A stretch of 64,000 nt of DNA, from assembly GCA_964187785.1 (NCBI GenBank), contig OZ076409.1, positions 74,278,001 to 74,342,000 on the forward strand, read 5' to 3'. A model generated the notes under the pieces. The model was not told where the DNA came from and searched no databases. It was given only the letters and a program-made list of their open reading frames with translations. Position numbers and translations under genes: made by a program. The stretch comes from Amphiscolops sp. MND2022. Taxonomy: Eukaryota. This document shows, in pieces, positions 1 through 64,000 of this stretch; position 1 is the stretch's first letter, and each line of letters opens with the position of its first letter.

Positions 1-700
1 ATCTCGCCACGGGTTTACGCTAGCGCTTGAAAACCCTGCTAAAGAAAGCTTGCAAACTGTCTCAGGAATGGGGTGTGAAATTTTCAGCTCAATCGGACTC
101 AAACTCAGGGAGATATAGCGTTTTTCCGGAGCGGGGGGGTTTCATTTTTCTAACGGTCCAGCTTATCTTAGCCATTTTTTCGAAAACGTACTCGCCTAAA
201 GACCTCCCCTGGCCGATTTTATTCCCAGCAAAACCATTTGGCCCTAAATACGGAGTTTCAGCGTTCCAGCATTCCCGGGCGAAAAGTTGTGGGACTTAGA
301 AAATTTCAAAAATTTTCAAAAATTTTTTTTTCCGTTTTCCGCCCTCCCCCCCTAGGGGAAAAGACCACCCAACCAGTAATTTGAGTGAATTCATGTGGAA
401 AGGCCATGTTTAGAGGAGAAAAATACCGTTTAGATCGTCTTTTTATCTTTATTCAACGTTGACTTATGACGTTTTGAAGGTGATGTTTGGAGGTGTGAAG
501 CACGTGAAAAGTAAACGTTATGAGTATTTATCTGATCTGAAAGCCATTGAGATGCAACCTATTTTGCTCAAAACGTAATTCATATCAGTTTGGTAGTCAA
601 TCAACACCCTTTGTTGTCATTTGACATCTTTTTTTGTTGATATAGGAAAAAATTTCGTGTATTTATTCATTTTTTTATCATCAAATAACTTGAAACAGTT

Positions 701-745
701 GAGTACATTCCATCCCCCCTTCACGGGGGAGATGAGAATGTACTC
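701..745 (+). other. Conserved ~45-nt internal hairpin of the 1.3-kb units (representative copy)
   Basis: GAGTACATTC-CATC-CCCC…GGGG-aGATG-a-GAATGTACTC. It is conserved even where flanks are unalignable by eye (e.g. ~7115, ~12359, ~31812, ~44665, ~63149). Confidence 0.8.
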
Positions 746-952
746 GCAAAAAGCCCCGAACTACGGCCCTTACCTTCCTGAGCTACGCAGTATAAAGATT
801 GCATATTGGTTCCGACATTTTGATAGAGTTATATCTTGGTAATCTGTCTGGGTATGCAGAAAAACCAGCACGTGCTTTTTTATACCAAAGTTGCTCACAA
901 CGACATTTATTTTATATCAACGCCCCCATATTTATCAACGCCCCCCGTCCGT

Positions 953-972: not shown

Positions 973-1046
973 TTCGACGACGTATACCAAAATATGTTCG
1001 AGCGCGTTAGCCTAGGTGCCGGGATTTCCATTCGATAAGGAATTCT

Positions 1047-1074
1047 GCGCGTGTGGGTAGGGCCCCTGGCGCGC
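1047..1074 (+). other. 5'-subterminal stem-loop with (T/G)AGGG(T/C) loop (representative copy)
   Basis: GCGCG-tgt-GGG-TAGGGC-CCC-tgg-CGCGC here. Other subfamilies have different but complementary stems around the same loop (7463-7486, 18639-18662, 30872-30893). Confidence 0.8.
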
Positions 1075-4000
1075 TCCTGTGTTTTCGGTTTTCCTACTCC
1101 TAAATAGGCCCCCTGAATTCCGGGATCTCCTAAACTATCCATACGATTTGGCTGAAATTTGGCACACGTACCCCCCTCGGCACGGTGAAGATGATTCCTT
1201 ACTGACGTTTTGCCCGCTAAACATTTTTTGTTGACCAAAATAACGGTTTTTGGTGGAAAATTTTCAACTTTTTTTAAATTTCATCTTATATCTCGCCACG
1301 GGTCAACGCTAGCGCTTCCAAACCTTTCTAACGAAAGTTTGCAAACTGTCTCAGGAATGCTGTGTGAAAATTTCAGCTCAATCGGACCTGAACTCGAGAA
1401 GATATAGCGTTTTTCCGGAGCGGGGGGGTTTCATTTTTCTAACGGTCCAGCTTATCTTTGCCATTTTTTCGAAAATGCACTCGCCTAAAGGCCTCCCCTG
1501 GCCGGTTTTATTCCCAGCAAAACCATTTGGCCCTAAATACGAAGTTTCAGCGTTCCAGCATTCCCGGGCGAAAAGTTGTGGGACTTAGAAAATTTCAAAA
1601 AATTTCAAAAAAATTTTTTTCCGTTATTTGGGCCCCCAAAGTGGGGGAAAAGACCCCCCAACCAGAAAAGCAAGTGAATGCATGTGCCAAGCCCTTGTTT
1701 AGAGGAGAAAAATGCCGTTTAGAACGTCTTTTTATCTTGGCTCAACGTTGACTTATGACGTTTTGAAGGTGATGTTTGGAGGTGTAAAGCAAGTGAATAG
1801 TAAACGTTATGAGTATTTATCTGATCTGAAAGCTATTGAGATGCAATATGGTTTGCTCAAAACGTAATTCATTGCAGTTTGGCAATCAATCAACACCCTT
1901 TGTTGTCGTTTGACATACTTTTTTGTTGTTATAATAAAAAATTTTGTGTATTTATTCATTTTTTTCTCATCAAATAACTTGAAACAGTTGAGTACATTCC
2001 ATCCCCCCCTTCCGGGGGAGATGAGAATGTACTCGCAAAAAGCACCGAACTACGGCCCTTACCTTCCTGAGCTACGCAGTATAAAGATTGCATATTGGTT
2101 CCGACATTTTGATAGAGTTAAATCTTGGTAATCTGTCTGGGTATGCAGAAAAACCAGCACGTGCTTTTTTATACCAAGTTGCTTACAACGACAATTATTT
2201 TATATCAACGCCCCCATATTTATCAACGCCCCCCGTCCGTGGGCATGCCGAGGCATGCCCTTCGACGACGTATACCAAGATATGTTCGAGCGCGTTAGCC
2301 TAGGTGCCGGGATTTTCTATTCGACAAGTTTGCGCGCCTTGGGGAGGGTCCCTTTGCGCGCTTTAAGATCCAGGTGTTTCCAACTCCTAAACGGGCATGT
2401 GATTTCGACGATCTCCTAAACTAGCCATACGATTTGGCTGAAATTTGGCACACGTACCCCCCTCGGCACGGTGAAGATGATTTCCTACTGACGTTTTTCC
2501 CGCTAAACATTTTTTGTTGACCAAAATAACGGTTTTTGGGGTAAAATTTTCAACTTTTTTTAAATTTCATCTTATATCTCGCCACGGGTACACGCTAGCG
2601 CTTCCAAACCTTGCTGACGAAAGTTTGCAAACTGTCCCAGGAATGCTGTGTGAAATTTACAGCTCAATCGGACTTAAACTCGAGGAGATATAGCGTTTTT
2701 CCGGAGCGGGGGGGTTTCATTTTTCTAACGGTCCAGCTTATCTTTGCCATTTTTTCGAAAATGTACTCGCCTAAAGGCCTCCCCTGGCCGGTTTTATTCC
2801 CAGCAAAACCATTTGGCCCTAAATACGGAGTTTCAGCGTTCCAGCATTCCCGGGCGAAAAGTTGTGGGACTTAGAAAATTTCAAAAATTTTCAAAAATTT
2901 TTTTTTCCGTTATTTGGGCCCCCAAAGTGGGGGAAAAGACCCCGCAACCAGTAAAGCAAGTGAATGCATGTGGAAAGCCCTTAGTTAGATGAGAAAAATG
3001 GCGTTTAGAACGTCTTTTTATCTTGGCTCAACGTTGTCTTATGACGTTTTGAAGGTGACCGTTAGATACGGAAAATTGATGTTTTGAGTCTTTATCCCAT
3101 CTGAAAGCCACTGAGATACAACATGTTTTGCTCAAAACGTATTTCATTGCAGTTTCGCTGTCCATTAACACCCTTTGGTGTCTTTTGACGTATTTTTCTT
3201 TTCTATAATAACATTTTTTCTGTGTATTTATTCATTTGTTTTTCATCAAATAACTTGAAACAGTTGAGTACATTCCATCTCCCTTCCCGGGGGAGATGAG
3301 AATGTACTCGCTAAAGGCCGCGAACTACGGTCTATATCTTCCCCAAAACAAAAGAGATTGAAAATTGTTTCATTTTGTGGAAAAAGTTCTTCTTTTTGTA
3401 CACTGTGACTCGACAAAGTGAACGTTTCTTACCTATTTTGAAACTTCCCTCACCAAAAACCATCTCTAACGTCAGCGCCCCCCTACTTGCATCAACGCCC
3501 CCCGTCCGTGGGCATGCCGAGGCATGCCCTTCGACGACGTATACCAAGATATACCTGGAGCGCGGTAGCCGCTAGGTGGCCGTGTCTTTTCGACGTGCTT
3601 TTGCATTGAGGAGTGGGTAGGGCCCCGCGACGACCTAGAAGAATTGGATGCTCACCGAAACGTGCAGAATTCTACGAGATCTCATAGTTTGAGCCATACG
3701 ATTTTTCTGAAATTTGGCATGTGGCCTGGAATTGGTGAGTAGGTAAAACGTGTAGAAGGTAATTTTTCCCAAATTCCACTGTGAGAGGAGATATGGGCAA
3801 ATAACGGACCCAAAAATGGCAAAAATGCACATTTTTCAACTTTGTCAGCCAATATCTCTTTTCCAGGTGCCCGTAGCGTTCCGCACGTGGACATCAATAT
3901 TGCTCAGCGCTGTTGGAGGAGTGCGTGGACAAATTTTGGTTTAAATCGGACTTAAACTTGACGAGAAATTAACGGTTTTTTGGGCGTTTCCGGGGTAAAT

Positions 4001-7429: not shown

Positions 7430-10400
7430 GTGCGGGGGGGAAACCCCATCCCTTATCTTGGAGGATTCGGGTAGGGTCCTGAATCCGAGTTCAGTGCCGC
7501 CAGCTCTCAGTAGAAATCTGGGCATTTTTTTGCGATCTCGTGATCTAACCATAGGATTTTAAAGTTGGAGCGGCCCCCACCAGATTTTCCAAAGTTATTC
7601 GCCCCCCACCGGGTTCCAGCGTGATTGAAATATTTTGACGGGGTACACGGGCGACCGTTAGGGGTCATTTTGGGGGTAAAATTTATATCCGGTCGCATAA
7701 CTTTTTTCCTGTTGGATTAAAACTTTGGGACCCTGCTAAAAGTTTCTTGACCGTGTTGCGGGGGCTCCGGAGGTCCAAACCAAATTTTTCTATCTTGAAG
7801 CTATCTCCAAGTACCCCCCCGCCCAAACCGTTATTTTTCCGGAAACGCAGGTTTTTGACCCGGAAGGAGTCGTCTGAGCGCGGGGTCGTTAGGTGATGTA
7901 TTGGGGACGGCCTTGAGACGAAGCGGGGGATATATAGTTTGCCGACCCCAGTTTACCCCCCGCACGGGAAATGACCGTTATATGAGCGGGAAAAATGCCC
8001 CCCTCCACGTTTTACCGCTATTTCCGGTGTGAAGGAGTGGGAGTAGCGCTTCGGGTGCCATATATCAAAAATAAGTTTAGACAAGGACCTATCGGAAACA
8101 TGTAGTTTGGGACCCCCTGGACCAACCCGTTAGCGGGAAATGGGGCTTCCGCCTCCTTTTTTTACTGCTAAAACCGTAAAATGGGCATTGAGGGGTAAAT
8201 ATCTCGTGAACGCGTGGAGCAATCGTGTCCATCACTACTACAAGGTTTCATACCCATGATATGGTGCCTTCAGGGGGGCAAACAGATTTCCGCTATCTAT
8301 CACCGTTACCGACTTGGCCCCCCAGCCTAACCGCTATGTGACCGGAAATGTCACTTTTTGAGCCCAAAGGGTCGGTCCCAGCCGGGGAACGTTAGGTAAC
8401 TTATTGTAGTACTCAATGAGACGAGTTGGGGGATATAGTTTCAGTCAACCCCCGTTACCCCTTGGGACCGGAAATGACCGTTATGTGGGTAAATTTGCAA
8501 TTTTTATACTCTTTGAAGTGTATTTAGGTGCGGAAGGAGTGGTAATAGGTGCTTGGACACTATATGATGTAATGGAGGTCGTGAGGAGAGCATTCGGAAA
8601 TAACCGTTATGTTGACCCCAAAGTCCCCCTGGTACCGTTAACGACCGGAAATGGCCAAATTTTGTGTCTATTGGGTACAAATGTTTGGTATTTTATGGAT
8701 AAAAGTACATGGAAGGTGTTTCAAAGGCCTCCAGAAGTGAACATAGTCATGAAACCTTGTGGGGGGTAACGGTATATAGCACCGGAAGTCCAAACCGTTG
8801 GTCACAGAATAGGTTTTTTGGTTTCAAAATGTCTTTAGGCATAGTTTTGTGGGTTGAATCGTCATAATATCAACTAATACGGACTTTTTTCGGAAATAAA
8901 AATTTTTCCCATTAGTTTCAGGGACCTCCAATGCTTCAGTCAACATAACCGTTACATTTTGATAGCCTTTCAAGTTGACCTGGTGTCAACTTGGAAGGGC
9001 TATCCTTCTAAAATCGTTAATCAAGAGTGTTTTTGGGTAGGTATATGTTGCATTAGTACCAATTAGAGCTTCATCAACAGTTTGCCAACGGCAAAAACGA
9101 TGTCGTGATAATTCCGTTATAAAAATATTAGTTAACAAATTGTTTTCAAAGTTGATTTTTTCCATTAAAAATGTGTCCTAATGCCACCAAATTGAATAAA
9201 ATAATAAATGGTATTGACTAAAACTAAATAACAATGAAAAAGAAGATCAACATTTTTATTAGGTCTCATTATGGAAGCTGAAACCTCACGTTTTAGTTTA
9301 CTTAACGTCAACGCCACATACTTTACATCAACGCCCACCGTCTGTGGGCATGCCGAGGCATGCCCTTCGACGACGTATACCAAACAACCTCCATATCTAC
9401 ACCCACCCGCGGTAGCAGCTAGGTGCGGGGGGGTAACCCCAACAAATATATTGGAGGATTCGGGTAGGGTCCTGAATCCGATTTTAACTCTAATAGCTAT
9501 CGATAGGAAATCTTGCAAAAATTTCGGGATCTCGTGATCTAACCATAGGATTTTAAAGTTGGAGCGGCCCCCACCAGATTTTCCAAAATTATTCGCCCCC
9601 CACCGGGTTCCAGCGTGATTGAAATATTTTGTCGGGGTACACGGGCGACCGTTAGGGGTCATTTTGGGGGTAAAATTTATATAATGTCGCATAACTTTTT
9701 TCCTGTTGGATTAAAACTTTGGGACCCTGCTAAAAGTTTCTTGACCGTGTTGCGGGGGCTCCGGAGGTCCAAACCAAATTTTTCTATCTTGAAGCTATCT
9801 CCAAGTACCCCCCCCGCCCAAACCGTTATTTTTCCGGAAACGCAGGTTTTTGACCCGGAAGGAGTCGTCTGAGCGCGGGGTCGTTAGGTGATGTATTGGG
9901 GACGGCTTCGAGACGAAGCGGGGGACGTGTAGTTTGCCGACCCCAGTTTACCCCCCGGACGGGAAATGACCGTTATTTGAGCGGGAAAAATGTCCCCCTC
10001 CACGTTTTACCGCTATTTCCGGTGTGAAGGAGTGGGAGTAGCGCGTCGGGTGATATATAACAAAAGTAGGTTTAGACAAGGACCTATCGGAAACATGTAG
10101 TTTGGGACCCTCTGGACCAACCCGTTAGCGGGAAATGGCGCTTCCGCTTCCTTTTTTTACTGCTAAAACCGTAAAATGGGCATTGAGGGGTAAATATCTC
10201 GTGAACGCGTGGAGCAATCGTGTCCATCACTACTACAAGGTTTCATACCCATGATATGGTGCCTTCAGGGGGGCAAACAGATTTCCGCTATCTATCACCG
10301 TTACCGACTTGGCCCCCCAGCCTAACCGCTATGTGACCGGAAATGTCACTTTTTGAGCCCAAAGGGTCGGTCCCAGCCGGGGAACGTTAGGTAACTTATT

Positions 10401-51210: not shown

Positions 51211-51444
51211 GTATTGTTTTAGCATATTTAGAATCAAAATTGAATTTTTCACGTTTGAAAGATTATAAGATTTACAAGTTCTCTGATTTTATCCATCGTC
51301 TAAAACTTGATTGACTCGATTTTGGTAATTGTTCCAGTGGCGCTTCAACTATTAATTCGATTTCATTAGCCAATTCGGTTGATCCGTATCAAATTTTAGT
51401 CCCAATGAGATACTGAAATGTTCAATTTCGTTTCATATTTTCAG
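51211..51444 (+). other. Possible 5'-UTR intron (or trans-splice acceptor) just upstream of the RepHel ATG
   Basis: A pyrimidine-rich TTTCATATTTTCAG|G ends at 51444, 4 nt before the ATG. A candidate donor AAG|GTATTG lies at 51210/51211. Confidence 0.4.
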
Positions 51445-51448
51445 GGAT

Positions 51449-54400
51449 ATGCCTCCAAGGAGAAATCGGAGTGTTAGAAACAAGTGCTCCCGGTGCCGTG
51501 TGTTTATCCCTCAGTCTTCGACTTTGTGTGCCAGTTGTGCATCTTCCTCCGCCGAGGTAACTCATGACAACGAAGACAGCAGCAGTGTTTCTATACCCAA
51601 CGAAGACAACCCTCGGAACATAGTTTACCCTCCTCGTTGTACATTATGTGGATTACATGAACAGTCACAAGGCCAACTTTGTTGTTTTTGCTGTCCTGTT
51701 ACTTTACCCGTTTGTACAGATGCAGAATGTCAAAAGTGCCGAAGAATTACCTGTTCATCACTTAATTCCATTTCTATGACTGATGTAAAGCAGACTGCAT
51801 TTGGTTGCCGATTACCGGGAGAAACATCTGATTTTGCAAGACTGTGCAACGAGTGTAGTCATTACACAACACATGGCTTCCAATCGCCATGGAGAATTAT
51901 TTGGCCCTGTGTGGTATTAGATTTCCTCCGTGGAAAATACAATGGAGTTGCTGATGGAAAACCATTCCATAAAGTGTTGCCTACTTCTATATTGAAACAA
52001 TATCAACATCTGTTGCAGATTAACACTGATGAAAAAGAGACTGTTTTTGCTGACTTGACACACAAACTCCAGGAATTCACAAATCTAAAAGAAGAACTCA
52101 AAATTGAAGGTTTGCAAAAAGCTCATAACAAGTACTGTTTTCCAGAAGTTCGCTGTCCCTTTGGTTGTACTGAGTTTGTTGGGGACACGGGATTAATACC
52201 TTTGCAGTTCTTTCTTCAGATGTTAGACCAAAACTTTGCATTTAACAAGATAAAATGGAAAAGGCGATTACGTTGTGTTCGACCTGATTGGTTGTGTTCA
52301 TACAATCACAACGATGTCTTCAACGTAAGACCACACATTGTTATCGACGAGAAACAAGGACTGTGTCTTGCAACCTGTAAATTTCACAACGGGGGATCGC
52401 ATCAGTTTTTCGTCCATCCTCCTACAAATCCCACTGGTAGATTACCCTCGAAAAATGCTGATCGTCTTGGGCCTGCTACAGTTAGTTACAACTGTTACAA
52501 ACCAAGCAAGCCGAATTTTTCCACTCACACGTTTTCAATGGGTGTGGCCAAGGGTAGTTTCTCCGGGATTAGTTCGACTACAATTGCCTGTAAGCGAAGG
52601 TGGGATATCGCATTTGGTGAAGACGATGTTGTGCGAGAAGCTCTTTGTTCAAATAACCGTCTGGATATAAAGCCACTCCTACAACAACTGGTAAACAAAG
52701 GAGAGATTTCACAGAATCTCTTCGATAGCATTACATCAAATGAAGGTTTGCCTGACGATCAAACAGTTCTGGAATGTTTAAAGACTGCTACATCCGTCCC
52801 CTTCGAACTAGCTCTTGCATTAAAGAAAATTCAAGAAGAAGGAATAAGTGTGAACTATTTTCCGGTTTTCTCCCAACCTTTTACAAAACACGGATGTGAT
52901 CCACCTGACACAGTTGTAAACACGTCAATGCCGAAACATTTATGGCTTTATGCTGTAATGTTTGCTGTGAGTTGCAATTTCCATTTGTCTCTTTTGAAGT
53001 TCATTGCAACAGATACTTCTTTAAAAGATATTTTCCCTCTAATGCTGAATAATGATGGTAGACTGGTTGCAAAAAAGAAACGAGAACTTGCAGAGTTTTT
53101 ACAAAGTCAACCGCAAGATCCCAGTTATGACATGGTTGATAGTTTGCAACAATTGTTATCAACAATATCTTTCGTCAAACACTTCAACGTAACTGACAGA
53201 GGAAGTGTTGAATCAAATTTGAAATCTCTGACCGACGAAAAAATTGTTACATTCATTACCAATGCAAGGAGAAGGGATGATGGGTATTTGCCGGATAGAG
53301 TGGTAACTACGAATAGCTCAACAACATACGAGCTACGATCGATTGCTATCCTTGAGGGCGGTAACGTGAAAACCATCGTTAGACATGGTAACGAGTATAA
53401 TTGTTGGTGGATATACTCTACAGCTCATGAGACTCCAACAAAAATGAAACTTGAAGACCTTGTGGAGATGAGTCATTTTCATTCAAATTGGATGTCGTGT
53501 CATTACGAAGTCATTGGTTCAGTTGACATGCAGAGAGCAAAATACCAGTACTTGGAATATTTGGGAGGCCAGGGACGATTCATTTGTGACGATCATCATG
53601 TCCCGCTTACTGTAGCTAGAAATGGTACTCCGACTCTTTGTTCGTTCAGTCCCAGCTGTCAACGAAAGCCTGCTTGGAATTGCCCCTCGGAAAACTGCTT
53701 GTCGTCAGTCTGCCGCACTCATTTCAGACAACACCAACTGAGCAACGAACATCTGTTTGTCAAATGTCCCACTTCAAATAATGAGGTTGTTCGTTCACAA
53801 CCTGCTGAATCTTGTGATGATGATGATGATGAAGTTGTTTCTGAACCAGAATCAGAATACGATGAATTTTCTTTTACAAATTTCACAACCGACGCTGGTC
53901 ATGTTGACAATATGACAAATTGTTTGGCCACAGATTCTGGAGACATGCCGTCAGTCGTTGACAGTATTGACACGTCAATTCCTGCCCACATTTTGCTAAA
54001 CACAGATTGTCACGTACTAGAAAGGAAGAATTACAGAAATGACCGTTCCAAAACAAGTTCACGATTTTTACAAAACATTGTCGCAAGTTCTGGTAATTCC
54101 ATCCCTCTCATTTACCCTGATGCAGCGCTCTTCCCTACTCACTATTATCATGAACAGACAGACAACACTATTACTGGCGCTGTTCCGGCTCCTCTGTTTT
54201 GTGATAAACAGAGCAAACACTTTCTCTTTGCAAGCATTGAGGATCATAAACGATCAGCTGTTCTGAACCCAAATCTTTTGCAGTCAACCGACGTTAGAAG
54301 TATCCAGACTTCCTTCGACACCGTCCTGAATAAGCGCCTCACTTTCTCCGATACACGTTTGGTTCTCATTCGAGGATTCCAAGAAGTGACTGTGAAGACG

Positions 54401-57400
54401 TCCAAATCAATAACACCAAACAATCCAAAACTTCAATTTGACCAGGCAGATTCCAGAGTACGTGTAAATGAATTGGCTGCAATGTTATCTAAAGAACCTG
54501 CTACATTTTTCCTGACACTCACCTGCAACCAGAAAAATCACTTTGGGGTAGCACCAATTTTTGAAGCTATAGAAAATCGATTCAACAGAATCAAGAAAGA
54601 AGAGTACGAGAGAGCGGTCCAAGCTGAGATGGTGCTACTAACAAGAGCCTGGTATCGATCAGCTGAAGCTTTGATGGAATGGATAGAAAAATCTCCTGAT
54701 CAACCGCTTGGAACAGTCACCAAAATTTGGTATCGCTATGAGTTCCAATCTACCAAAGGGAACTTACCGCACATTCATTGTGTTATATGGACAAAGGAAA
54801 GCAAAGCAGAATTGCAACACAAGGTTTCATGCTCCGGATCATCAGCTTTATTCGAATTGAAAAAAATCGCTGCTGAAACAAATGTTATTAATTGTGATCA
54901 AGTTTTCGATTTGTGGACTCAACTGATGACAATTCAAACACATTCCTGCGAAAAGGCAAATTATCGCTGCCACAAAATTGTCAAAGACGATGGGTCAACA
55001 ATATGCAGAGTTCCCCGTTACCCGCATTCAAACCAGTATTCTTGGAGAAAAGTCCCATCAAGCCATTCGGAGGAAGCATTGCAAGTTCTTCATTACCTTG
55101 ACTTGGCAACACCCTCGAAGTCTCATGACGATACCTTCGATGTTTCAGACAGTCTTCAAGGAGGCAAATTCGAATACCCTGCCTCAAGTGACGAGCACCT
55201 TTCCCCTTTTAACCCACTTATTTTTGTCGCTACGATGTCTTCCCAAAACCTTCAATTGTGTGACGAATACCTGTCTGCAAGATATATTGCAAAATATGCA
55301 GCAGGAATTGAAGAACGAGCTGATGCACGTGTTGATCCTGTCTCCTTCAATGAAATTAGAGTTCACACTAAAGGAATCAATAATTCGAAAATTTCCAGTT
55401 GCCGTATCAAAGAAAAAAGTACAGATAGAAAAACAATCGTTCAGATCATTCCTCTCGTCGAAACAGTTTGGTGGTTATTAAACTTCAAATATGTTAACAG
55501 TTCTGTTTCGTTTGTTCATTTATCGACTCTTGAAAAGTCAGAACGACCGTCTTTCATCATACCCGGAAAAAATACAAACCCTTCCCAGCCATTACCTGCA
55601 CATGTGACAAAAAGTTTCAGTTTACCACTGTCGCGCCAATTCACCCAATCGCAGCTGTTGGTTTTGAAAGATTCTATGACAAGTGAGCATTCTAACTGCA
55701 AAATGACAATTTTTAGCGGTAGGCCACCTGCGCTTTTGTGTGTTGATAACCCTCAACTGTATTTCACTTGGTTCAACAGAGTTAATATTCGACATCCCGA
55801 GGATACAATGAAGCTTGATGTTAACATTTCAAAATGGATAGACGTTTTTGGGCGTGCTGTACACTTGAGACGTTGTTATCTTGATGAATTTTCCGCTCAT
55901 GTTACCAAACTGAGAAGAGAGGGACATAACAACTTGTACCGATTCGATGAAGATACTTCAATATTGTTTTTACAAAACGACAGTTTGGGGTTAAAAACGA
56001 TTGACGATACTCCAGTTCAAGTAGTGACTTCGAATATTGTGCCAAGTAACCGCCGAAGATTTTTGGTGCACTTCGTTTTATCTAACGGAAAGTTTGAGAC
56101 AGAACCAGATCTATTCAATCATCTTAGCATGCTGGAGGTTTTTATCAACTGCAAGTTACTGCCATTAAAAAGTTCTTATACAATACAAGACGCATGTGAT
56201 TTAGTGAAATTTTATGTTTTGACGGAACTCAAGTACCTTCCTGGTGCAAGCAGATCGTTCGATCGTCATTTGTTAAGTTGTTACGAGTTGATCACCAATC
56301 TCGTTCTTAATAACCAGATTCATACCGAAGCTTTGCCATCAACTCTTCATTCAGAACTAACCGAAAACGCTGAAATTGCCTACATTCTTCACAGTAACGA
56401 AAAACGAGAGCGAAGCGTTCAAGGTTGCCTCCTAAATCCTGCTTTGATGCCATTGCAACCACACAACGACTCTTTTGTGGCAGCCACCCGCAGTAACCCG
56501 TTTGTGTACAATTTTCCGTTTCCTCGAGCTCCCGGACAGTCCGACGAATCAAACACTTTTCAACAACGTGTGTTCAATGGGTGCATTCAGAAATTGACTA
56601 ACTTCATTGAAACAAAAGACGGTTTCATAAAACATCAATTGTTTTTGGGGCGTCCGGGAAGCGGCAAAACACTCATCTGCACGATGATATATCTGGAAGC
56701 TGTAGCAAAAGGTCTCAACTGTGCAATAACTTGTCTAAGCGGAGAACGAGCCCAACAACTCGGTGGTGAACATGTCCACAAGTTGTTCAAGTTCAGAGTA
56801 AACAAATTTCAAAATCCTGAATTAATGGCTTCTCAGAGTTTGAAAAGTCTTCTCAAGGATGTCACACGGTTCACTGAGCTGGAACGCCTGGATGTACTAT
56901 TCATTGATGAAGTGGGCCAGCTGAATTCTGAATTGATGATAGCTATGGAAATTGTGCTACAAACTGTTAGAGACAACAAATTGCCAATGGGAGGGGTCTT
57001 TACCATCCTAACAGGCGACCCGAAGCAATTGCGCCCTCCACAAGGATCATTGACATGGTTGTCACCGAAGATGCTGACAAATTTCGATTTCCACTACTTT
57101 AGACACTATGTAAGAGCAAAACCTGGATTGTTGCGAGAGATACTGACTAAAATGGACGAAATTGATATCAGCCCAATCGAAGCATCAAGTATTGCAAAGG
57201 AAATTGTAGCCAATTGTAATATCCATTCAACTTGGGACGATATTGGTGACAACTTTGATATGCGTGTATTCAGCACAAGAGCTGCTGAAAAACAAGCTGT
57301 TACACATCATTTTGAAAAAATTTTGGCTGACCAAAGCTGTGCAAAAGTCGTGTTTACTGCCAATGATGAAGAGAGTTCTACTGGATCGTCAATTTGGCGT

Positions 57401-58435
57401 CCGGCAGGTGACATCGAACAAAAATTCATCGATTCCACATCCATCACTCCCCGACAACTGCTCTTGTATAAAAAAGCGCTTCTAAGATTTACAGCCAACC
57501 TTCCCAACATTCAGGCTAGGCAAGGACAATTGTGCCTAATTTTGGAAATACCAACCGAAACAGCATCTTCTCTGGACGTTTGGATCGCACCACCAGGTTG
57601 CCGGACCGCCGCAAATTTCGACGAAAATAACCTAATTACATCTGGTTGGCGCAAAGTCTCTATATCAAAAGTGTTTACACCTGTCATGACGAACCAATGT
57701 AAATTCCTAAGGCGATACTCTTTTCCTCTCAAGAATTATGTGGCATCCACTATTCATAAATGCATTGGTGACACGTTCCCAAAGATTGTTACCAAAGTTT
57801 CACTGACGGACAAACATTACAAAATTTGGGAAAAGGAGCAACTTCTCGTGTTGTTGAGTAGAGTCAGCAAGCTCGACGACATAACGTTCGTTGGTGAAGA
57901 ACACGAAATAGAATTAACTTTAACTGCTGCCATTCAGCAAAAGTCCTGCTGGGGAACTTTCATCAATGACCTTCTAGAAAAATTGGCCTCTACTCCCTCT
58001 GACCTGACGCCGCCAACACTCAACCTCCTTTCTTCAAATGTTGTACCTTGGAACATTGTCTTGCCCGAAGACAATGTAGGCTTTGTGTATCTTCTGATAA
58101 GCACGAAGATTCCGAATGCTTATTGCATTGGAGAGGCTCTGGAAATTCGGCGAGAATTGAAACTTATCAACTCTGGAAATGGGGCAAGTGAAACGCGCCC
58201 AATCGAACGCAGGCCATGGGCAATCGTAGCATTTGCAACAGGTTTCAACACCGAAGATTCTTCCGGCAACAACACGCAAAGAAAATCGCTTGTATCGAAG
58301 ATGAGAACGCAATTTACTTCCCTTGGAATAAACTTCACCACCGTGGAATTGTTTGAAACGTTCAAAGAATCAACGAGAACATATGCTGACGAACGTGATT
58401 TAAATTTGAGAGTTATTCAATGTGCCAGTGTTTAA
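51449..58435 (+). CDS. Helitron/Helentron-like RepHel transposase, 2328 aa: Cys-rich N-terminus, HUH/Y2 Rep, PIF1-family (SF1B) helicase, C-terminal GIY-YIG(SLX1)-like domain
   Basis: Single uninterrupted ORF. Rep motif 1 TFFLTLTCNQ (aa ~1019), motif 2 YEFQSTKGNLPHIHCVIW (HUH, aa ~1108), motif 3 YIAKY (aa ~1279). Helicase Walker A GRPGSGKT (aa ~1734), Walker B LFIDEVGQ (aa ~1818), plus TGDPKQLRPP, FPLKNYVASTIHKCIGDT and QLLVLLSRV. The C-terminal GFVYLLIS...YCIGE...RR...N.G.GA..T....RRPW...F..GF resembles SLX1-type GIY-YIG. Confidence 0.93.
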   Translation: MPPRRNRSVRNKCSRCRVFIPQSSTLCASCASSSAEVTHDNEDSSSVSIPNEDNPRNIVYPPRCTLCGLHEQSQGQLCCFCCPVTLPVCTDAECQKCRRITCSSLNSISMTDVKQTAFGCRLPGETSDFARLCNECSHYTTHGFQSPWRIIWPCVVLDFLRGKYNGVADGKPFHKVLPTSILKQYQHLLQINTDEKETVFADLTHKLQEFTNLKEELKIEGLQKAHNKYCFPEVRCPFGCTEFVGDTGLIPLQFFLQMLDQNFAFNKIKWKRRLRCVRPDWLCSYNHNDVFNVRPHIVIDEKQGLCLATCKFHNGGSHQFFVHPPTNPTGRLPSKNADRLGPATVSYNCYKPSKPNFSTHTFSMGVAKGSFSGISSTTIACKRRWDIAFGEDDVVREALCSNNRLDIKPLLQQLVNKGEISQNLFDSITSNEGLPDDQTVLECLKTATSVPFELALALKKIQEEGISVNYFPVFSQPFTKHGCDPPDTVVNTSMPKHLWLYAVMFAVSCNFHLSLLKFIATDTSLKDIFPLMLNNDGRLVAKKKRELAEFLQSQPQDPSYDMVDSLQQLLSTISFVKHFNVTDRGSVESNLKSLTDEKIVTFITNARRRDDGYLPDRVVTTNSSTTYELRSIAILEGGNVKTIVRHGNEYNCWWIYSTAHETPTKMKLEDLVEMSHFHSNWMSCHYEVIGSVDMQRAKYQYLEYLGGQGRFICDDHHVPLTVARNGTPTLCSFSPSCQRKPAWNCPSENCLSSVCRTHFRQHQLSNEHLFVKCPTSNNEVVRSQPAESCDDDDDEVVSEPESEYDEFSFTNFTTDAGHVDNMTNCLATDSGDMPSVVDSIDTSIPAHILLNTDCHVLERKNYRNDRSKTSSRFLQNIVASSGNSIPLIYPDAALFPTHYYHEQTDNTITGAVPAPLFCDKQSKHFLFASIEDHKRSAVLNPNLLQSTDVRSIQTSFDTVLNKRLTFSDTRLVLIRGFQEVTVKTSKSITPNNPKLQFDQADSRVRVNELAAMLSKEPATFFLTLTCNQKNHFGVAPIFEAIENRFNRIKKEEYERAVQAEMVLLTRAWYRSAEALMEWIEKSPDQPLGTVTKIWYRYEFQSTKGNLPHIHCVIWTKESKAELQHKVSCSGSSALFELKKIAAETNVINCDQVFDLWTQLMTIQTHSCEKANYRCHKIVKDDGSTICRVPRYPHSNQYSWRKVPSSHSEEALQVLHYLDLATPSKSHDDTFDVSDSLQGGKFEYPASSDEHLSPFNPLIFVATMSSQNLQLCDEYLSARYIAKYAAGIEERADARVDPVSFNEIRVHTKGINNSKISSCRIKEKSTDRKTIVQIIPLVETVWWLLNFKYVNSSVSFVHLSTLEKSERPSFIIPGKNTNPSQPLPAHVTKSFSLPLSRQFTQSQLLVLKDSMTSEHSNCKMTIFSGRPPALLCVDNPQLYFTWFNRVNIRHPEDTMKLDVNISKWIDVFGRAVHLRRCYLDEFSAHVTKLRREGHNNLYRFDEDTSILFLQNDSLGLKTIDDTPVQVVTSNIVPSNRRRFLVHFVLSNGKFETEPDLFNHLSMLEVFINCKLLPLKSSYTIQDACDLVKFYVLTELKYLPGASRSFDRHLLSCYELITNLVLNNQIHTEALPSTLHSELTENAEIAYILHSNEKRERSVQGCLLNPALMPLQPHNDSFVAATRSNPFVYNFPFPRAPGQSDESNTFQQRVFNGCIQKLTNFIETKDGFIKHQLFLGRPGSGKTLICTMIYLEAVAKGLNCAITCLSGERAQQLGGEHVHKLFKFRVNKFQNPELMASQSLKSLLKDVTRFTELERLDVLFIDEVGQLNSELMIAMEIVLQTVRDNKLPMGGVFTILTGDPKQLRPPQGSLTWLSPKMLTNFDFHYFRHYVRAKPGLLREILTKMDEIDISPIEASSIAKEIVANCNIHSTWDDIGDNFDMRVFSTRAAEKQAVTHHFEKILADQSCAKVVFTANDEESSTGSSIWRPAGDIEQKFIDSTSITPRQLLLYKKALLRFTANLPNIQARQGQLCLILEIPTETASSLDVWIAPPGCRTAANFDENNLITSGWRKVSISKVFTPVMTNQCKFLRRYSFPLKNYVASTIHKCIGDTFPKIVTKVSLTDKHYKIWEKEQLLVLLSRVSKLDDITFVGEEHEIELTLTAAIQQKSCWGTFINDLLEKLASTPSDLTPPTLNLLSSNVVPWNIVLPEDNVGFVYLLISTKIPNAYCIGEALEIRRELKLINSGNGASETRPIERRPWAIVAFATGFNTEDSSGNNTQRKSLVSKMRTQFTSLGINFTTVELFETFKESTRTYADERDLNLRVIQCASV
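54503..55297 (+). other. HUH/Y2 Rep catalytic core of RepHel
   Basis: Motif 1 at 54503, HIH at 54770-54778 and YIAKY at 55283-55297; all catalytic residues are present. Confidence 0.9.
56648..57870 (+). other. PIF1-family helicase core of RepHel
   Basis: Walker A at 56648-56671 and Walker B at 56900-56911. Motifs III-VI are recognisable, although V and VI are divergent (TIHKCIG instead of the usual TIHKSQG; QLLVLLSRV instead of QxYVALSRV). Confidence 0.9.
58079..58250 (+). other. GIY-YIG (SLX1-like) domain at the RepHel C-terminus, probably catalytically degenerate
   Basis: GFVYLLISTKIPNAYCIGEALEIRRELKLINSGNGASETRPIERRPWAIVAFATGF follows the SLX1-type pattern VYLL.S…YIG.T…RRL.QHN…GA..T…RPW…..GF (pattern recalled, not aligned). 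Confidence 0.7.
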
Positions 58436-60889
58436 TTTATTTCAGTTTACAAATAATACAATGTAGAATATACTGGCAATGGAACGAAAGATGAAGCTTA
58501 CGAGGTTGCCCCGGTCACGCAGTGAGCCGAGGGCAAGCTCTTTGTGTGACAAAAATCAACATCCACTTTAACTAAAAATTTGCCACTTCGGTTGTCCTCC
58601 TCTTCTGTCATAAAATGTTGAGAGTGGTGTCTGGCTTTTTTCAAGGCACTTACAGCTCCATATCCTCAACTTCGTCGACAGAATTTTTGATTTACTCCTT
58701 GAAAGCTCCTTGAATTACTACCTTTTCTTATATTGGTTATTTCACAATCTCCTTTCCTCATTCGCGTGTTCCAGTGTTTATTTAACGAAGTTTGGTCAAC
58801 AAACTGCTGACGGGCCTTTTTTACTTGGCCTTTTCAATCTAAAAATTTTACCTCCAAGTTAAACGGCAGTTCGCTACTTTATCAGACATGTTATCCTAGC
58901 ATTCATCTTCTCAACACGCTCTAATGTGCAGACATTGATGGAACTGGTGTCTGACCCCCAAGGGTATTAACAGTGCCAATACTTCAATTTGCACAGAGCA
59001 GCTTCAATTGTTTGCCGATCCCTCGTAAAGCTTTATTTGTTTTCCTGCTTTTTGTCTCTTACCAGTCCACGCTTTACATTCAATATTTATGCTAAGTCTT
59101 CATTGAGTTGCATCATCTGGAATGAAGAAATCTGAGTATGGTATATGGTTCAAAAAATCATGAACAAATCTCCTAAAAAAATTGTCCTAAAAAACTCATA
59201 TACAAAAGGAAAGAGTCTAAAATGTTATATTCAACACTAAAATTTATCTATTTTACTTGAAGATTCAATTGAGGATTTAGGAGTTTTCCTAGTATTTTAT
59301 TTAAAAGATAGTCATCAGTAACTAAAGTTATGATCGATCTTTCTAAACATCGATTTTTAGCTTTTTGATTAGAAAAAGTGACAGTGAATATACATAAAGT
59401 TACTTCATCTCTGCGGTCAACACGGGATGTTTTATCAGTCTTTGTGAATCATAATTTATGTTGTTATCATTAACAATTTTGAATTGGATTTCTCCATTAC
59501 ACATCAGCCTAAAATGGGCGATAAATGAAAAGCTCAGTAGGTAAGTTTTTGTTTAATTATTAAATTTAGCTGATAGTTTCGTTCTTGTTCCTCAAAAAAC
59601 AAATTGCTACAACAGCGTTTGCACTAAAAGTTATTCGGGACAGGTCAATATACTTTTACTTCAATTGTTTGAACCATAGAACGATCAGCTAAAGTGTTTT
59701 CTGCTGGAAAAGGATAACCGTCAATCCGGACAGATCTAAACGACGTTTCCTGTTCGTCCGACTTCACTCACCCTCCGCCAAACGCTCAAGTATTCGAATG
59801 TTTGCATGGAAACGTGTTTTTCATAGTGGATATTGCTTTCAAGTATTGATTACTGATGACACTGGGACTTTAGTTTTTTGATGAAAATGGAGAAAAGAAA
59901 AAATACACTGAGTGATCTTGTGATCAACTCACATGTCATTTCTTTCATCCAAATCACACAATTCAAGCACTCCTGTCATTGGTCGCACCCATGATACTCC
60001 AATCAAAAAACCAATTTTTTAAATTGATAACATGTTCAAACAGTGTCGGACGCAAAGAGAGTCCAAAATAAGTTTTTTGAACTGGTCATTTTTCATAATG
60101 CTTTGCAAACAATTCTATTACAGTCACAGCTTTATTCTCACTAGCTTCAATCGTGAACAATTTTCTCAACAAGTGATGATGTCACGCACCTAACTAGTAT
60201 CAGTCCTGCCTTCATTACCGATATGTCCGTCTTGCACTTATGGTTGCTCCCTTCTGAACCTCATCTATGAACTGTGCATAAATCTTCATTGCATCCTGAA
60301 AACGACTCCAGCTGAAACAATTTAACTTTTTATATTCTTTGTTGCTCGCATTGTAAATACTATAAACAATTCTGTCAAATGTTTTGAAGAACAGATTTTT
60401 AAAAAAAGCATTGCATCTAATGCAATGAACGCGGACATATATACAAATTGACGATGGAATTTTTCAAACATGTGTTTTTAGCCATTCAAGTTGAAACTAA
60501 GAAATTAGATAAAGTAGGCTGAAGGCGAGTTTACAAAGTGTTAGTTCGTCTTTGTAGAGCCGTGAATCAGTTATAAATACGCACAAAACTTCCTTTCAGT
60601 GAAACATAATGAAAACATAAAAAATTTAAATTAGTGCTTAGCAACATAACTGTTGTTACTTTATTCATTTTTGGAATTATTTTTTTCGATTGCGTAGGAG
60701 AATCAATCAGTTACGTTATGTTCAAAATTGTCGTCCCCATCGATTGCAACTCCAACGTCAGCTGCTTTATGTGCATCAAGCCGACGTCCCAAACCATTTA
60801 ATAACGCCCACCGTCCGTAGGCATGCCGAGGCATGCCTTTCGACGACGTATGCCAAATAACCAAAAACCGACGCGCACTCTCCCGCTAG

Positions 60890-63800
60890 GTGCCCGGATT
60901 TCTATTCATTAAAGTATGTTGCGCGTGTGGGTAGGGCCCCTGGCGCGCTCTTGTGTCCCTGTTCTCATAACTGCAATTTCCGGCAGCATTCTGAGCGATT
61001 TTCTAAACTATCCATACGATTCGGCTGAAATTTGGCACACGTACCCCCCTCGGCACGGTGAAGATGATTTCCTACTGACGTTTTTCCCGCAAAATTTTTT
61101 TTGTTGTCCAAAATAACGGTTTTTGGGGTAAAATTTTGAATTTTTTTTAAATTTTATCTTATATCTCGCCACGGGTTTACGCTAGCGCTTCAAAACCCTG
61201 CTAAAGAAAGCTTGCAAACTGTCTCAGGAATGCTGTGTGAAATTTTCAGCTCAATCGGACTCAAACTCGGGGAGATATAGCGTTTTTCCGGAGCGGGGGG
61301 GTTTCATTTTTCTAACGGTCCAGCTTATCTTTGCCATTTTTTCGAAAATGCACTCGCCTAAAGGCCTCCCCTGGCCGGTTTTATTCCCAGCAAAACCATT
61401 TGGCCCTAAATACGGAGTTTCAGCGTTCCAGCATTCCCCGGCGAAAAGTTGTGGGACTTAGAAAAGTTCAAAAATTTTCAAAAAATTTTTTTTCCGTTTT
61501 CCGCCCTCCCCCCCTAGGGGAAAAGACCCCCCAACCAGTAATTTGAGTGTATTCATGTGGAAAGGCCATGTTTAGAGGAGAAAAATGCCGTTTAGAACGT
61601 CTTTTTATCTTGGCTCAACGTTGACTTATGACGTTTTGAAGGTGGTGTTTGGAGGTGTAAAGCACGCGAACAGTAAACGTTATGAGTATTTATCTGATCT
61701 GAAAGCCATTGAGATGAATATGGTTTGCTCAAAACGTAATTCATGGCAGTTTGGCAATCAATCAACACCCTTTGTTGTCGTTTGACATACTTTTTTGTTG
61801 TTATAATAAAAAATTTTGTGTATTTATTCATTTTTTTCTCATCAAATAACTTGAAACAGTTGAGTACATTCCATCCCCCCCTTCCGGGGGAGATGAGAAT
61901 GTACTCGCAAAAAGCACCGAACTACGGCCCTAACCTTCCCGAGCTACGCAGTATAAGGATTACATATTGGTTCCGACATTTTCATAGAGTTAAATCTTGG
62001 TAATCTGTCTGGATATGCAGAAAAACCAGCACGTGCTTTTTTATACCAAGTTGCTTACAACGACAATTATTTTATATCAACGCCCCCATATTTATCAACG
62101 CCCCCCGTCCGTGGGCATGCCGAGGCATGCCCTTCGACGACGTATGCCAAAGATATTCCCGAGCGCGTTAGCCTAGGTGCCGGGATTTCTATTCGATAAA
62201 GTAAGTTGCGCGGTTGGGTAGGGCCCCGTGAGCGCGCCCGTGTCTGTGTTTTTTGAACCTGAATTTGCGGGTGCCAAAATAGACGATCTCCTAAACTATC
62301 CATACGATTTGGCTCAAATTTGGCATACGGGTTCCTGAGACAGATATAAGAACTAATTCCTACTGGCGTTTTGCCCGGAAAATTTTTTTTGTTGCGCAAA
62401 CTTGAAATTTTTGACAAAAAAATGCGATTTTTTTTGAAAAATTTTTTTTGAGAGGCCATATCTTTTTTCAGGGAGCCCGGAGCGGGACGCGTTAAACTGA
62501 TTATAAACTCTACGGTTCACGGGCTGTACGGGGAACCTATTTTTGTTGGAATCCGACTTGTAGATTTTGAGATATATCATCAAATTTGGGTGTTTTTTTT
62601 CCAATATTTCGAAAAACCTGGTTTATCTCTGCCGTTTTTTGCCCAGATTTTTTTATAGACCCTCTCCTAAAGGCCTCCCCTGGCCAGATTACGTCCCAGC
62701 AAAACCATTTGGCCCTAAATACGAAGTTTCAGCGTTCTAGCATTTTCGGGCGAAAAGTTGTGGGACTTAGAAAAAGTTTTTTTAAAACGCAAAATGTGTA
62801 AAGTCAACTTCAGGCCTCCCAAAGTCAAGGAACTTCCACACAACTAGGATTGCAAGTGGATGCATGTGGAAAGTGCTTGATTAGACGAGGAAAATGAGCT
62901 ATTATAAAACTCTGTAGCTTAACCTGACGTTGACTTATGACAATTTTAGTGTGAGCTTGCTATGTGAGAAAAAATTTCAAAAATTGAAAATCGAAGCTAA
63001 GTCTCATCCAAAACTCATCGGAATACGTTCAATCCATTCCAAAGCGGTTTACTTCCAGCTATAGACTGCAGCAACACTATTCAAGACCATTGTACCCCTT
63101 TATATTAGTTTTGACATTGTATTATTCATCCGAGAGCACAAAGCAGTTGAGTACATTCCATCTCCCTTTCGGGGGAGATGAGAATGTACTCGCTAAAGAA
63201 CAGGTACTACAGCCAATTTTTGTATTTATGCGAAGCCATTCTATGCTATTGCACATAACAACTATGCTATTGACTTAATTTTGCCTACACTTTGCTATGA
63301 CATATGCTAAACGTTTGGTCCTTACAACAACATACACATGACTAACGTCAACACCACATACTGTTACCAACGCCCACCGTCCGTGGGCATGCCGAGGCAT
63401 GCCCTTCGACGACGTATGCCAAATACCTTCCAGCGACGCTCGCGCTCCCCGGCTAGGTGCCGGTGTTTTTCACGACAAAGAAAGTTGCGCGCTTTGGGTA
63501 GGGTCCCGGCGCGCTTTTGGGGTTCATTTTAACAACCTGATCTCCCGTTGCACGTATGTCCGATTTTCCAAACTATCCTACCAATTTTGCTGAAATTTTG
63601 CATGTGGGTCCCTATGGACATTCTAAGAACAAATCCCTACTGGCGTTTTGCCCGGAAAATTTTTTTTCTTGACTTATTGACAATTTTAGGTGCCGAAAAT
63701 GACGTTTTTTCAAAAAAAAATTTTTTAAGAGCCCATATCTCGCTCCCAGGTGCCCGGAGCGGGTCGCATGTGGTCGTTGATATTGCTAGGCACTTCGTAA

Positions 63801-64000
63801 GGAGTCTGTAGACAAATTTTGGTTCAGATTGGATGAAAAATGATTGAGTAATAGCCGCAAATTGGACGCATTTTGTCAAATTTTTTCGAAACCCCAGTCT
63901 ATCTCTGCCGTTTTTTGCCCAGATTTTTTTCTAGACCCTCTCCTAAAGGCCTCCCCTGGCCGAATTACCTCCCAGCAAAACCATTTGGCCCTAAATACGA
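60890..64000 (+). mobile_element. Array resumes after the autonomous element: units 60890-62176, 62177-63456 and partial 63457-64000
   Basis: Same termini and core sequence as the upstream 1.3-kb units. Confidence 0.85.

What the first reader, a model, noticed from the sequence alone, without database searches (positions are those of the whole stretch)
1..64000. Candidate self-targeting rolling-circle system: a cassette-like array of diverse Helitron-like elements plus their RepHel, joined only at their own CTAG|GTG junction
Seen: 37 complete units of three size classes (about 1.3, 2 and 12 kb) and many subfamilies lie in one orientation with no intervening DNA and in shuffled order. All share the same two terminal structures, and the 12-kb RepHel-encoding unit sits in the array as just another unit. 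Established: Helitrons use an HUH/Y2 Rep plus PIF1 helicase, end in hairpin-CTRR, form end-joined circles, normally start with TC and disperse into A|T (Helitron) or T|T (Helentron) sites; read-through gives tandems of the same element. Inference: here the units start with GTG and neighbours often differ, which fits circles of different family members being integrated sequentially by Rep-mediated strand transfer at a pre-existing junction. The result would be an integron-like 'landing pad' array that may form a large satellite or centromere-like domain. I cannot verify novelty without a literature or database search.
Basis: partly seen in the sequence, partly recalled or inferred. Interest (0 to 1): 0.92.

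Follow-up and report, generated by a model that had tools for sequence, protein, structure and literature searches.

The report
Rolling-circle transposons stacking at their junctions
A divergent group of eukaryotic rolling-circle (Helitron-like) transposons whose copies almost all sit end to end at each other's junctions, so that many different families build mixed, same-direction arrays megabases long, a targeting behaviour I found no description of for Helitrons.

Summary
Confirmed and extended. The window holds 37 whole units (30 of about 1.3 kb, 6 of about 2 kb, 1 of 12 kb), joined at 38 CTAG|GTG sites, all on one strand. It lies in a same-strand array sampled over about 6 Mb that carries 34 Rep matches at 34-100% identity. 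Genome-wide, 4665 of 5059 tail motifs are followed by CTAG|GTG. Near-identical units usually have dissimilar neighbours, and similarity stops at the junction.

New here: solitary copies and array starts insert 3' of CTNG (22 of 27; T at position 2 in 27 of 27) without target duplication. The element's own end (CTAG, also CTGG/CTTG) therefore rebuilds the target, as in bacterial IS91. The tetranucleotide alone is not enough: none of about 6,300 internal CTNG sites in 299 kb holds an insertion.

The RepHel belongs to a GIY-YIG-bearing family that branches apart from this genome's HLE1 and HLE2 (unrooted, few references), with named relatives in hagfish, a tunicate and Perkinsus. Best reading: Rep-mediated strand transfer into existing origin junctions (about 0.68; inferred, not assayed). 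A centromeric role is untested. Membership in the Paramecium or HELIANO 'unclassified' Helitron clades could not be tested.

The parts
1..64000 (+). Part of a head-to-tail array of non-autonomous and autonomous rolling-circle elements: 37 whole units plus two cut by the window ends
   Evidence: continues on both sides
1012..1018 (+). First of 38 junctions CTAG|GTG (break between 1015 and 1016; last junction at 63453-63459). CTAG is the 3' end of one unit and, by inference, the target and nick site of the next
   Evidence: boundary profile; solitary and empty-site flanks
1047..1074 (+). Example head hairpin (putative origin): variable GC-rich stem closing a conserved GGG(T/G)AGGG(T/C)CC top that ends 48-58 nt from the unit start
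   Evidence: position in 142 of 149 units, and native arms fold at -8.5 versus -6.2 kcal/mol for swapped arms
2242..2259 (+). Example subterminal tail hairpin GGCATGCC-GA-GGCATGCC, about 40-60 nt before the terminal CTAG (putative terminator signal of the main tail class)
   Evidence: 37 of 37 window units; 97 of 149 units in 304 kb
7430..11397 (+). Two non-autonomous units of about 2 kb, similar to the 1.3-kb class only at the ends
12666..20601 (+). Four non-autonomous units of about 2 kb
48874..60889 (+). Autonomous 12,016-bp unit; shares about 790 bp of head and 55-90 bp of tail with 1.3-kb units
51383..58435 (+). Uninterrupted RepHel open frame (P0001; first ATG at 51449): Cys/His-rich N-terminal part, HUH/Y2 Rep, PIF1 helicase, C-terminal GIY-YIG-like domain
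54770..55297 (+). Rep catalytic core: HUH (H1130, H1132) to the two tyrosines (Y1301, Y1305), invariant in 26 relatives; the predicted fold matches Helraiser best
   Evidence: Foldseek 7lcc E 5.9e-5 on a model of mean pLDDT 55
56639..57037 (+). PIF1 helicase N-terminal part (Walker A GRPGSGKT)
58079..58300 (+). GIY-YIG (SLX1-like) region. Pfam does not detect it in P0001 itself but does in 7 of 7 relatives tested, so it may be degenerate in this copy

Best explanation
These are rolling-circle transposons of a divergent RepHel+GIY-YIG lineage with IS91-like site logic. Shown: each element runs from GTG (hairpin-bearing head) to CTAG (sometimes CTGG/CTTG), inserts 3' of a host CTNG without duplication, and nearly all copies sit at the junction of two other copies in the same orientation. 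Inferred: Rep binds the head and nicks after CTNG; the helicase peels off the strand; the second tyrosine cuts after the tail CTAG, giving a single strand or circle. The preferred target is a CTNG followed by a head, which is a complete origin, so every array junction is a ready target. Insertion there leaves both neighbours intact, fixes the orientation and turns one target into two, so arrays grow by positive feedback and take in any family whose Rep reads the shared head. Rare insertions at a bare CTNG seed new arrays. The GIY-YIG domain may cut the opposite strand or resolve the branched intermediate (weakest step).
For: 4665 of 5059 tails are followed by CTAGGTG, against about 27 million CTNG sites in the genome (estimate). 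In 299 kb read whole, 149 of 149 junctions follow a recognised tail; there are 2992 + and 3336 - internal CTNG sites, no minus-strand junction, and one stray partial head. Head and tail are linked within units (MI z 15.6, 11.3) but weakly across junctions (z 2.0, 3.3). Near-identical units have near-identical neighbours in 10 of 212 flank comparisons. Two 13.5-kb autonomous units are 98.2% identical from first to last base with different neighbours. Left flanks are CTNG in 10 of 13 non-redundant loci chosen by head sequence (background 1.26%) and in 12 of 14 others; copies with CTTG, CTCG or CTGG on the left still end in CTAG; a paralogous empty site is intact. Reps 41-50% identical on three other chromosomes sit between the same junctions (3 of 3). 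dN/dS about 0.10-0.26 where dS is measurable. IS91 uses CTTG/GTTC/GTCC/CTCG with invariant T at position 2 and no duplication (PMC13181058, passages).
Against: No biochemistry, no circle and no new insertion was observed. Same-head neighbours exceed chance (13 of 86 versus 4.8; 6 of 61 versus 2.7) and 70 of 952 alignments cross a junction, so local duplication or read-through also contributes. Many alignment ends lie 100-200 nt or more inside units, so recombination among related units is real. Five heads of the 2.2-kb class lack the conserved loop yet sit in arrays. One old family is dispersed rather than arrayed (14 loci). No head was recognised upstream of 11 of 20 dispersed tails. Whether head, tail or both define the target is not resolved.
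Confidence: 0.68

Rival explanations
1. Arrays arise as rolling-circle concatemers of one element (terminator read-through) and are mixed later by unequal crossing over, gene conversion or homologous capture of circles, with no targeting of junctions.
For: Tandem Helitron arrays are reported (PMC5148889 passages citing plant centromeres; 2-7 copies in Xenopus, PMC12001565 passages). Same-family neighbours are about twice chance; within-family mosaics and 70 junction-crossing alignments exist.
Against: Adjacent units are near-identical at only 5 of 147 junctions. Tail classes without a shared motif abut all head types. Similarity ends at the junction, where only 7 nt are shared. Short arrays of 2-8 units are already mixed.
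Confidence: 0.14
2. Targeting is regional, not junction-specific: Rep is tethered to an existing element end or its chromatin and uses the nearest CTNG, usually the junction; interrupted units are lost over time.
For: L099 shows two insertion points 16 bp apart in host DNA (CTAG| and CTGG|). Families cluster locally along arrays.
Against: One such case among the loci read; no insertion at any of about 6,300 internal CTNG sites in 299 kb with many young units. It is partly a variant of the best explanation.
Confidence: 0.13
3. CTAG is a 4-bp target-site duplication made by another enzyme (DDE transposase or retro-type), or the array is a satellite, an RNA-gene array or an assembly artefact, with RepHel as a passenger.
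For: Insertions at CTAG look like a duplication (L031, L081).
Against: Left flanks CTTG/CTCG/CTGG pair with a CTAG end. Strict orientation at a palindromic site. All 7 units over 10 kb in the 304 kb read encode RepHel. No Rfam match and no long tandem period up to 500 bp. Arrays and solitary copies occur on many chromosomes.
Confidence: 0.05

Closest known systems
Helitron / HLE1 (Helraiser, PDB 7lcc)
   Same: HUH/Y2 Rep fused to PIF1; 3' CTRR end with a subterminal hairpin in the main tail class; no target duplication; the predicted Rep fold matches 7lcc best.
   Different: 5' GTG instead of TC; CTNG| target instead of A|T; covarying head hairpin; C-terminal GIY-YIG; Rep profile versus Helraiser E 0.052 while this genome's HLE1 gives E 9e-193; mixed megabase arrays.
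HLE2 (Helitron2 / Helentron / FoHeli)
   Same: Hairpins at both ends; OTU, Ulp1 or (one moss family) GIY-YIG passengers (PMC11417382 passages; PMC3627910 passages); occasional self-insertion and multiple 5' ends in Fusarium (PMC5148889 passages).
   Different: No T|T target, no 5' T, no DUF6570 or AP-endonuclease hit in P0001; none of 42 DUF6570 matches lies in the C1 70.5-76.5 Mb array; separate branch in the Rep tree.
Paramecium Helitrons ('HLE Paramecium', PMC13085455)
   Same: A third clade outside HLE1/HLE2; the element's end (CCAA) matches its target repeat; absolute orientation bias; clustering in large domains (section 18 part 1 and passages).
   Different: They insert into telomeric repeats, which remain between copies; no direct element-to-element junctions and no GIY-YIG in the text (0 hits) or in the 7 readable supplements. 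Sequence relationship not tested.
IS91 / IS801 / IS1294 (bacterial rolling-circle IS)
   Same: Tetranucleotide target next to the origin end (CTTG, GTTC, GTCC, CTCG), T at position 2, terminator cut after a similar tetranucleotide, subterminal palindromes, no duplication (PMC13181058 passages). All five of CTTG, CTCG, CTGG, GTCC and CTTC occur both in that paper's table and among the flanks here.
   Different: IS91 transposases lack a helicase and form a separate Rep group (PMC10288648, PMC6213432 passages); the passages read describe no mixed arrays. The resemblance is in mechanism, not membership.
Replitrons
   Same: Eukaryotic HUH transposons with orientation-specific insertion 3' of a short target (PMC10288648 passages).
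   Different: Y1 Rep, no helicase, terminal direct repeats.
Integron cassette arrays (recalled; from no call)
   Same: Mixed, same-orientation units joined at recombination sites, probably read as single-strand hairpins.
   Different: HUH chemistry rather than a tyrosine recombinase; every junction appears usable; the units are selfish elements without cargo genes.

Membership tests
Helitron-like elements (broad) | HUH/Y2 Rep fused to a PIF1 helicase | tested here: met
Helitron-like elements (broad) | No target-site duplication | tested here: met
   mismatched left and right tetranucleotides; empty site L214 versus filled L081
Helitron-like elements (broad) | Single-strand, circular intermediate | not testable with these tools
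   no sequencing run was listed; a self-junction could not be told from an array junction anyway
HLE1 (canonical Helitron) | 5' TC | tested here: not met
   GTG in 149 of 149 array units (split at this motif) and in solitary copies found by internal motifs
HLE1 (canonical Helitron) | 3' hairpin plus CTRR | tested here: met
   met for the main class (97 of 149 units); ends CTAG/CTGG, rarely CTTG; hairpin weak in the 'CACGT' class
HLE1 (canonical Helitron) | Insertion between A and T | tested here: not met
   0 of 27 left flanks end in A; 22 of 27 are CTNG
HLE1 (canonical Helitron) | Rep falls in the HLE1 clade | tested here: not met
   references were 7 HLE1 rows from this genome only
HLE2 (Helitron2/Helentron) | T|T insertion and 5' T | tested here: not met
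HLE2 (Helitron2/Helentron) | DUF6570 marker or AP endonuclease | tested here: not met
   no hit in P0001 or in 7 relatives; DUF6570 loci lie elsewhere
HLE2 (Helitron2/Helentron) | Asymmetric terminal inverted repeats of 8-17 bp | not tested
   no dedicated search; head-tail sequence pairs were only read by eye
HLE2 (Helitron2/Helentron) | Rep falls in the HLE2 clade | tested here: inconclusive
   36 (35 in the second tree) family rows form one side of a long branch (SH-aLRT 98, 99) against 10 (8) own-genome HLE2-type rows; unrooted quick trees with a long-branch warning and without HLE2 subgroups from other species
HLE Paramecium clade / HELIANO 'unclassified' clusters | Rep and helicase group with those sequences | not testable with these tools
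   sequences not available as tool inputs; motif terms absent from the readable Paramecium supplements, two large files unreadable; Myxine, Styela and Perkinsus not found in the one HELIANO supplement held
IS91 family | Tetranucleotide target next to the origin, own end cut after a like tetranucleotide, no duplication | tested here: met
   which end is the origin is inferred
IS91 family | Helicase-less prokaryotic transposase | tested here: not met
   2328-aa RepHel

The most novel reading that the evidence does not exclude
A widespread eukaryotic RepHel+GIY-YIG lineage that uses its own origin as its integration site. Many autonomous families down to about 34% Rep identity and their parasites share one self-multiplying landing pad and so build multi-megabase, single-polarity chromosome domains by site-specific insertion rather than by satellite-type recombination; such domains might serve as centromeric or subtelomeric chromatin.
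Probability: 0.45. Interest if true: 0.92.

Novelty: new variant of a known kind. Interest (0 to 1): 0.82.

Why it matters
It would add a third target rule for Helitron-like elements (an IS91-type tetranucleotide plus the element's own head). It would show a transposon group sparing host genes by making its own safe harbour, and give a route to satellite-like domains in which each monomer is a mobile unit and the order records insertion history. It makes an open question testable: how HUH transposases pick targets and whether integration is the reverse of origin nicking. A eukaryotic HUH enzyme that inserts 1-15 kb units at a defined, regenerating site is also of interest for serial DNA integration. 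Annotation tools that look for TC...CTRR or terminal inverted repeats would likely miss these ends.

Tried and rejected
Viral contigs: no relative. Metagenome contigs: 20 loci with relatives at 26-52% best-segment identity, none showing an array or a clear junction; whether relatives in other organisms form arrays is open. Rfam: 0 matches, so no support for a ribozyme or RNA-gene array. Earlier scan findings: none by words, sequence or place. The careful tree did not finish; quick trees were used. The first motif-based extraction recovered no HLE2 rows and was redone on longer stretches. A second, proximal head hairpin (as in IS91 oriIS) is clear in some heads and absent in others, so it is not claimed. 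The ESM Atlas gave Helitron_like_N clusters only. The outer edges of the 6-Mb array were not read. CTAG as a target duplication was rejected. A uniform satellite or higher-order repeat was rejected. My note of about 37 Rep matches in the C1 array was a rough count; the list gives 34.
Full report
OBSERVATION. The window is wholly made of head-to-tail units. CTAGGTG occurs 38 times on + and never on - (about 3.2 per strand expected). The 37 whole units are 30 of 1267-1316 bp, 6 of 1973-1996 bp and one of 12,016 bp. All 37 carry the tail hairpin motif and the head loop, in 17 head and 13 tail clusters. The 12-kb unit holds one open frame, 51383-58435, with Helitron_like_N and PIF1 hits. Tandem Repeats Finder gave 5 short rows and Rfam nothing.

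SCALE. The window lies at G000:C1:74.28-74.34 Mb in a 1.07-Gb eukaryotic assembly. Of 20 probes from 73.28 to 75.35 Mb, 18 held plus-strand junctions, one lay inside another Rep unit and one held a tail motif. A probe at 72.28 Mb had junctions; one at 77.34 Mb had no motif. A search with the Rep core gave 122 matches (120 of 478 candidates scored); 34 lie in C1:70.56-76.46 Mb, all on +, at 34-100% identity, 28 of them in open frames of 2200 codons or more. Further clusters lie on C2 (102.0-103.9 Mb, 17 matches) and C3 (2.4-3.9 Mb, 10 matches). The 6-Mb array was sampled, not read through; one interruption was seen at 76.005 Mb (L060). The tail motif has 5059 copies; 4665 are followed within 24-52 nt by CTAGGTG and 63 by CTAG plus a non-G base. 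Five of the 30 such loci read were altered junctions inside arrays. The head loop follows CTAGGTG 4019 times and CTBGGTG 583 times.

UNITS BEHAVE AS UNITS. Two contiguous stretches (200 kb and 104 kb, the second including the window) split into 87 and 62 units that fill 198.5 and 101.0 kb between first and last junction, with 41 head and 39 tail clusters. Every one of 149 junctions follows a recognised tail of five classes. Head-tail mutual information within a unit is far above shuffles (z 15.6, 11.3); across a junction it is weak (z 2.0, 3.3). For 111 near-identical unit pairs the neighbours were near-identical in 10 of 212 comparisons, and per-base identity fell from about 90-100% to about 40% just outside CTAG at the 5' side and just after GTG at the 3' side. 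Of 1904 ends of alignments of 500 bp or more at 95% identity, 28% were within 10 nt of a junction against 1% for uniform positions; 882 of 952 crossed no junction. Against a pure shuffle: same-family neighbours are enriched (35 of 86 versus 20.9; 27 of 61 versus 13.5), same-head neighbours too (13 of 86 versus 4.8; 6 of 61 versus 2.7), and many alignment ends are internal, so local duplication and recombination among kin also act. Two 13.5-kb autonomous units 176 kb apart are 98.2% identical end to end with different neighbours; dN/dS between Rep frames is about 0.10-0.26 where dS is measurable.

TRUE ENDS AND TARGET. A small array on C1 (29.53-29.54 Mb) starts after host CTAG and ends in CTAG followed by host DNA. 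Fourteen loci found by an internal head pattern (13 after merging one duplicate) have left flanks CTTG x5, CTGG x2, CTCG x2, CTAG, ATAG, CTCT, CTCC: 10 of 13 CTNG, against a 1.26% background. Fourteen further starts found from tails or loop motifs give 12 CTNG plus GTCC and CTTC (left flanks of 6 of them, all tested that were host-like, showed no unit similarity, and a seventh, L086, proved to be another unit and was left out). All 27 have T at position 2. Copies with CTGG, CTTG or CTCG on the left still end in CTAG, so CTAG belongs to the element. One paralogous empty site reads through the insertion point unchanged (L214 versus L081; the motif used printed the filled site and 1 of 11 paralogues). 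For 11 of 20 dispersed tails no head was recognised. The tetranucleotide does not explain the arrays: the genome has about 27 million CTNG sites, and the 149 units hold 2992 plus-strand and 3336 minus-strand internal sites with no insertion seen apart from one stray partial head.

TERMINAL STRUCTURES. In 142 of 149 units a conserved GG(T/G)AGGG(T/C/G)CC top ends 48-58 nt from the start, on stems of different sequence. For 30 distinct arm sets native pairs fold at -8.5 kcal/mol against -6.2 for swapped arms; 17 of 30 beat at least three quarters of foreign partners. This supports selection on a single-strand hairpin, moderately. Autonomous units share about 775-870 bp of head with small units and little of the tail. 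One Rep of the window's group carries the head of the 33%-identical group, so heads can be exchanged between lineages.

PROTEIN. P0001 has invariant HUH (H1130, H1132) and two tyrosines (Y1301, Y1305) among 26 relatives. Seven of seven relatives scanned have a GIY-YIG domain after the helicase, SLX1-like by profile (E 6.5e-8); Pfam misses it in P0001. The Rep profile hits Helraiser at E 0.052, while an own-genome HLE1 hits it at 9e-193. A low-confidence model (pLDDT 55) still matches Helraiser best. In quick, unrooted Rep trees the family rows form one side of a long branch (SH-aLRT 98 with 53 rows; 99 with three long rows left out) against own-genome HLE1 and HLE2-type rows; 36 of 90 dereplicated family rows were used and the tool warned of long branches. 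The family is large (634 clusters at E 0.001 or less, a count that may include other Helitrons). Of 20 clusters looked up, three name an organism: Myxine glutinosa, Perkinsus olseni and Styela clava. Three Reps at 41-50% identity on C4, C5 and C10 each sit between the same junctions.

MECHANISM. Shown: ends, target, no duplication, unit-precise boundaries, many Rep lineages per array. From established Helitron and IS91 chemistry (PMC6213432 and PMC13181058, passages): 5'-phosphotyrosine at the origin, termination by the second tyrosine, end-joined intermediates. Inferred: a junction is a full origin and so the best target; insertion doubles the targets; bare CTNG sites seed arrays. L099, with two insertion points 16 bp apart, hints that an enzyme bound at an existing end may take the nearest CTNG (one case).

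PRIOR ART. Ten searches of the open library listed no paper describing mixed, junction-joined Helitron arrays or CTNG targeting by a Helitron. I read passages of PMC5148889, PMC11417382 (plus a term search of one supplement), PMC13181058, PMC10288648, PMC3627910, PMC4067079, PMC12001565, PMC6213432 and bioRxiv 10.64898/2026.09.17.752431, and passages, section 18 part 1 and a term search of 7 supplements of PMC13085455; other papers I saw as listings only. The plant centromeric Helitron tandem paper I know only through its citation in PMC5148889. Repbase, subscription journals, bioRxiv supplements and two large Paramecium supplements were not visible and could hold prior descriptions. The nearest concept is the Paramecium clade, whose end matches its telomeric target; HELIANO also notes unclassified clusters. 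Either might be this lineage.

VERDICT. Real, large and unusual. It works like IS91 in site logic and is a Helitron-like element in enzymes, but fails the defining terminal and target tests of HLE1 and HLE2. I rate it a new variant of a known kind, interest 0.82. Self-targeting by strand transfer has probability about 0.68; the centromere idea is open.

Noticed in passing
L137:150-235 (metagenome contig): A relative with about 25% Rep identity has a hairpin topped by GGGGAGGGTCCC about 1.6 kb upstream of its first frame, preceded by a second hairpin and a CTCG; the head signal may be conserved across hosts. Contigs of this cluster are often 13.1-14.0 kb long.
   Followed up: partly
L134:18800-19240 (minus strand): Two head-like hairpins and one CTAG|GTG on the opposite strand downstream of the Rep frame, as if the frame were reversed; also a 177-bp direct repeat flanking the frames. 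May be chance.
   Followed up: partly
G000:C2:102.0-103.9 Mb and C3:2.4-3.9 Mb: Rep matches are minus-strand in the left part and plus-strand in the right part of each cluster (8 then 9; 3 then 7), and both clusters lie near contig ends.
   Followed up: no
L035 (G000:C1:23.97-23.98 Mb): Two arrays of opposite strand converge; the stretch holds 200 N, so the join may be an assembly gap.
   Followed up: no
L099 (G000:C10:57.83-57.84 Mb): A unit and a short array separated by 16 bp of host DNA, both after CTNG.
   Followed up: partly
L087, L093, L100: Three dispersed tails share a similar 3' flank and lack the first 300 bp or so of the unit; possible read-through composite or insertion in another repeat.
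   Followed up: partly
G000:C1:73750224 and four more 2.2-kb units: A head class starting GTGGAGG or GTGGATG lacks the conserved loop yet sits in the arrays with normal tails.
   Followed up: partly
autonomous units in L101-L120: Internal minisatellites with periods of about 65 and 76 bp outside the Rep frame.
   Followed up: no
L081, L207-L218: One solitary copy sits in a tRNA-like dispersed repeat with hundreds of candidate copies (684 first-look candidates).
   Followed up: partly
L141-L186: The genome also holds dispersed HLE1 and DUF6570-bearing HLE2 elements; L180 and L181 are very divergent.
   Followed up: partly
P0013, P0030: Some relatives carry an OTU-like or Ulp1 (Peptidase_C48) domain in the same frame.
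   Followed up: no
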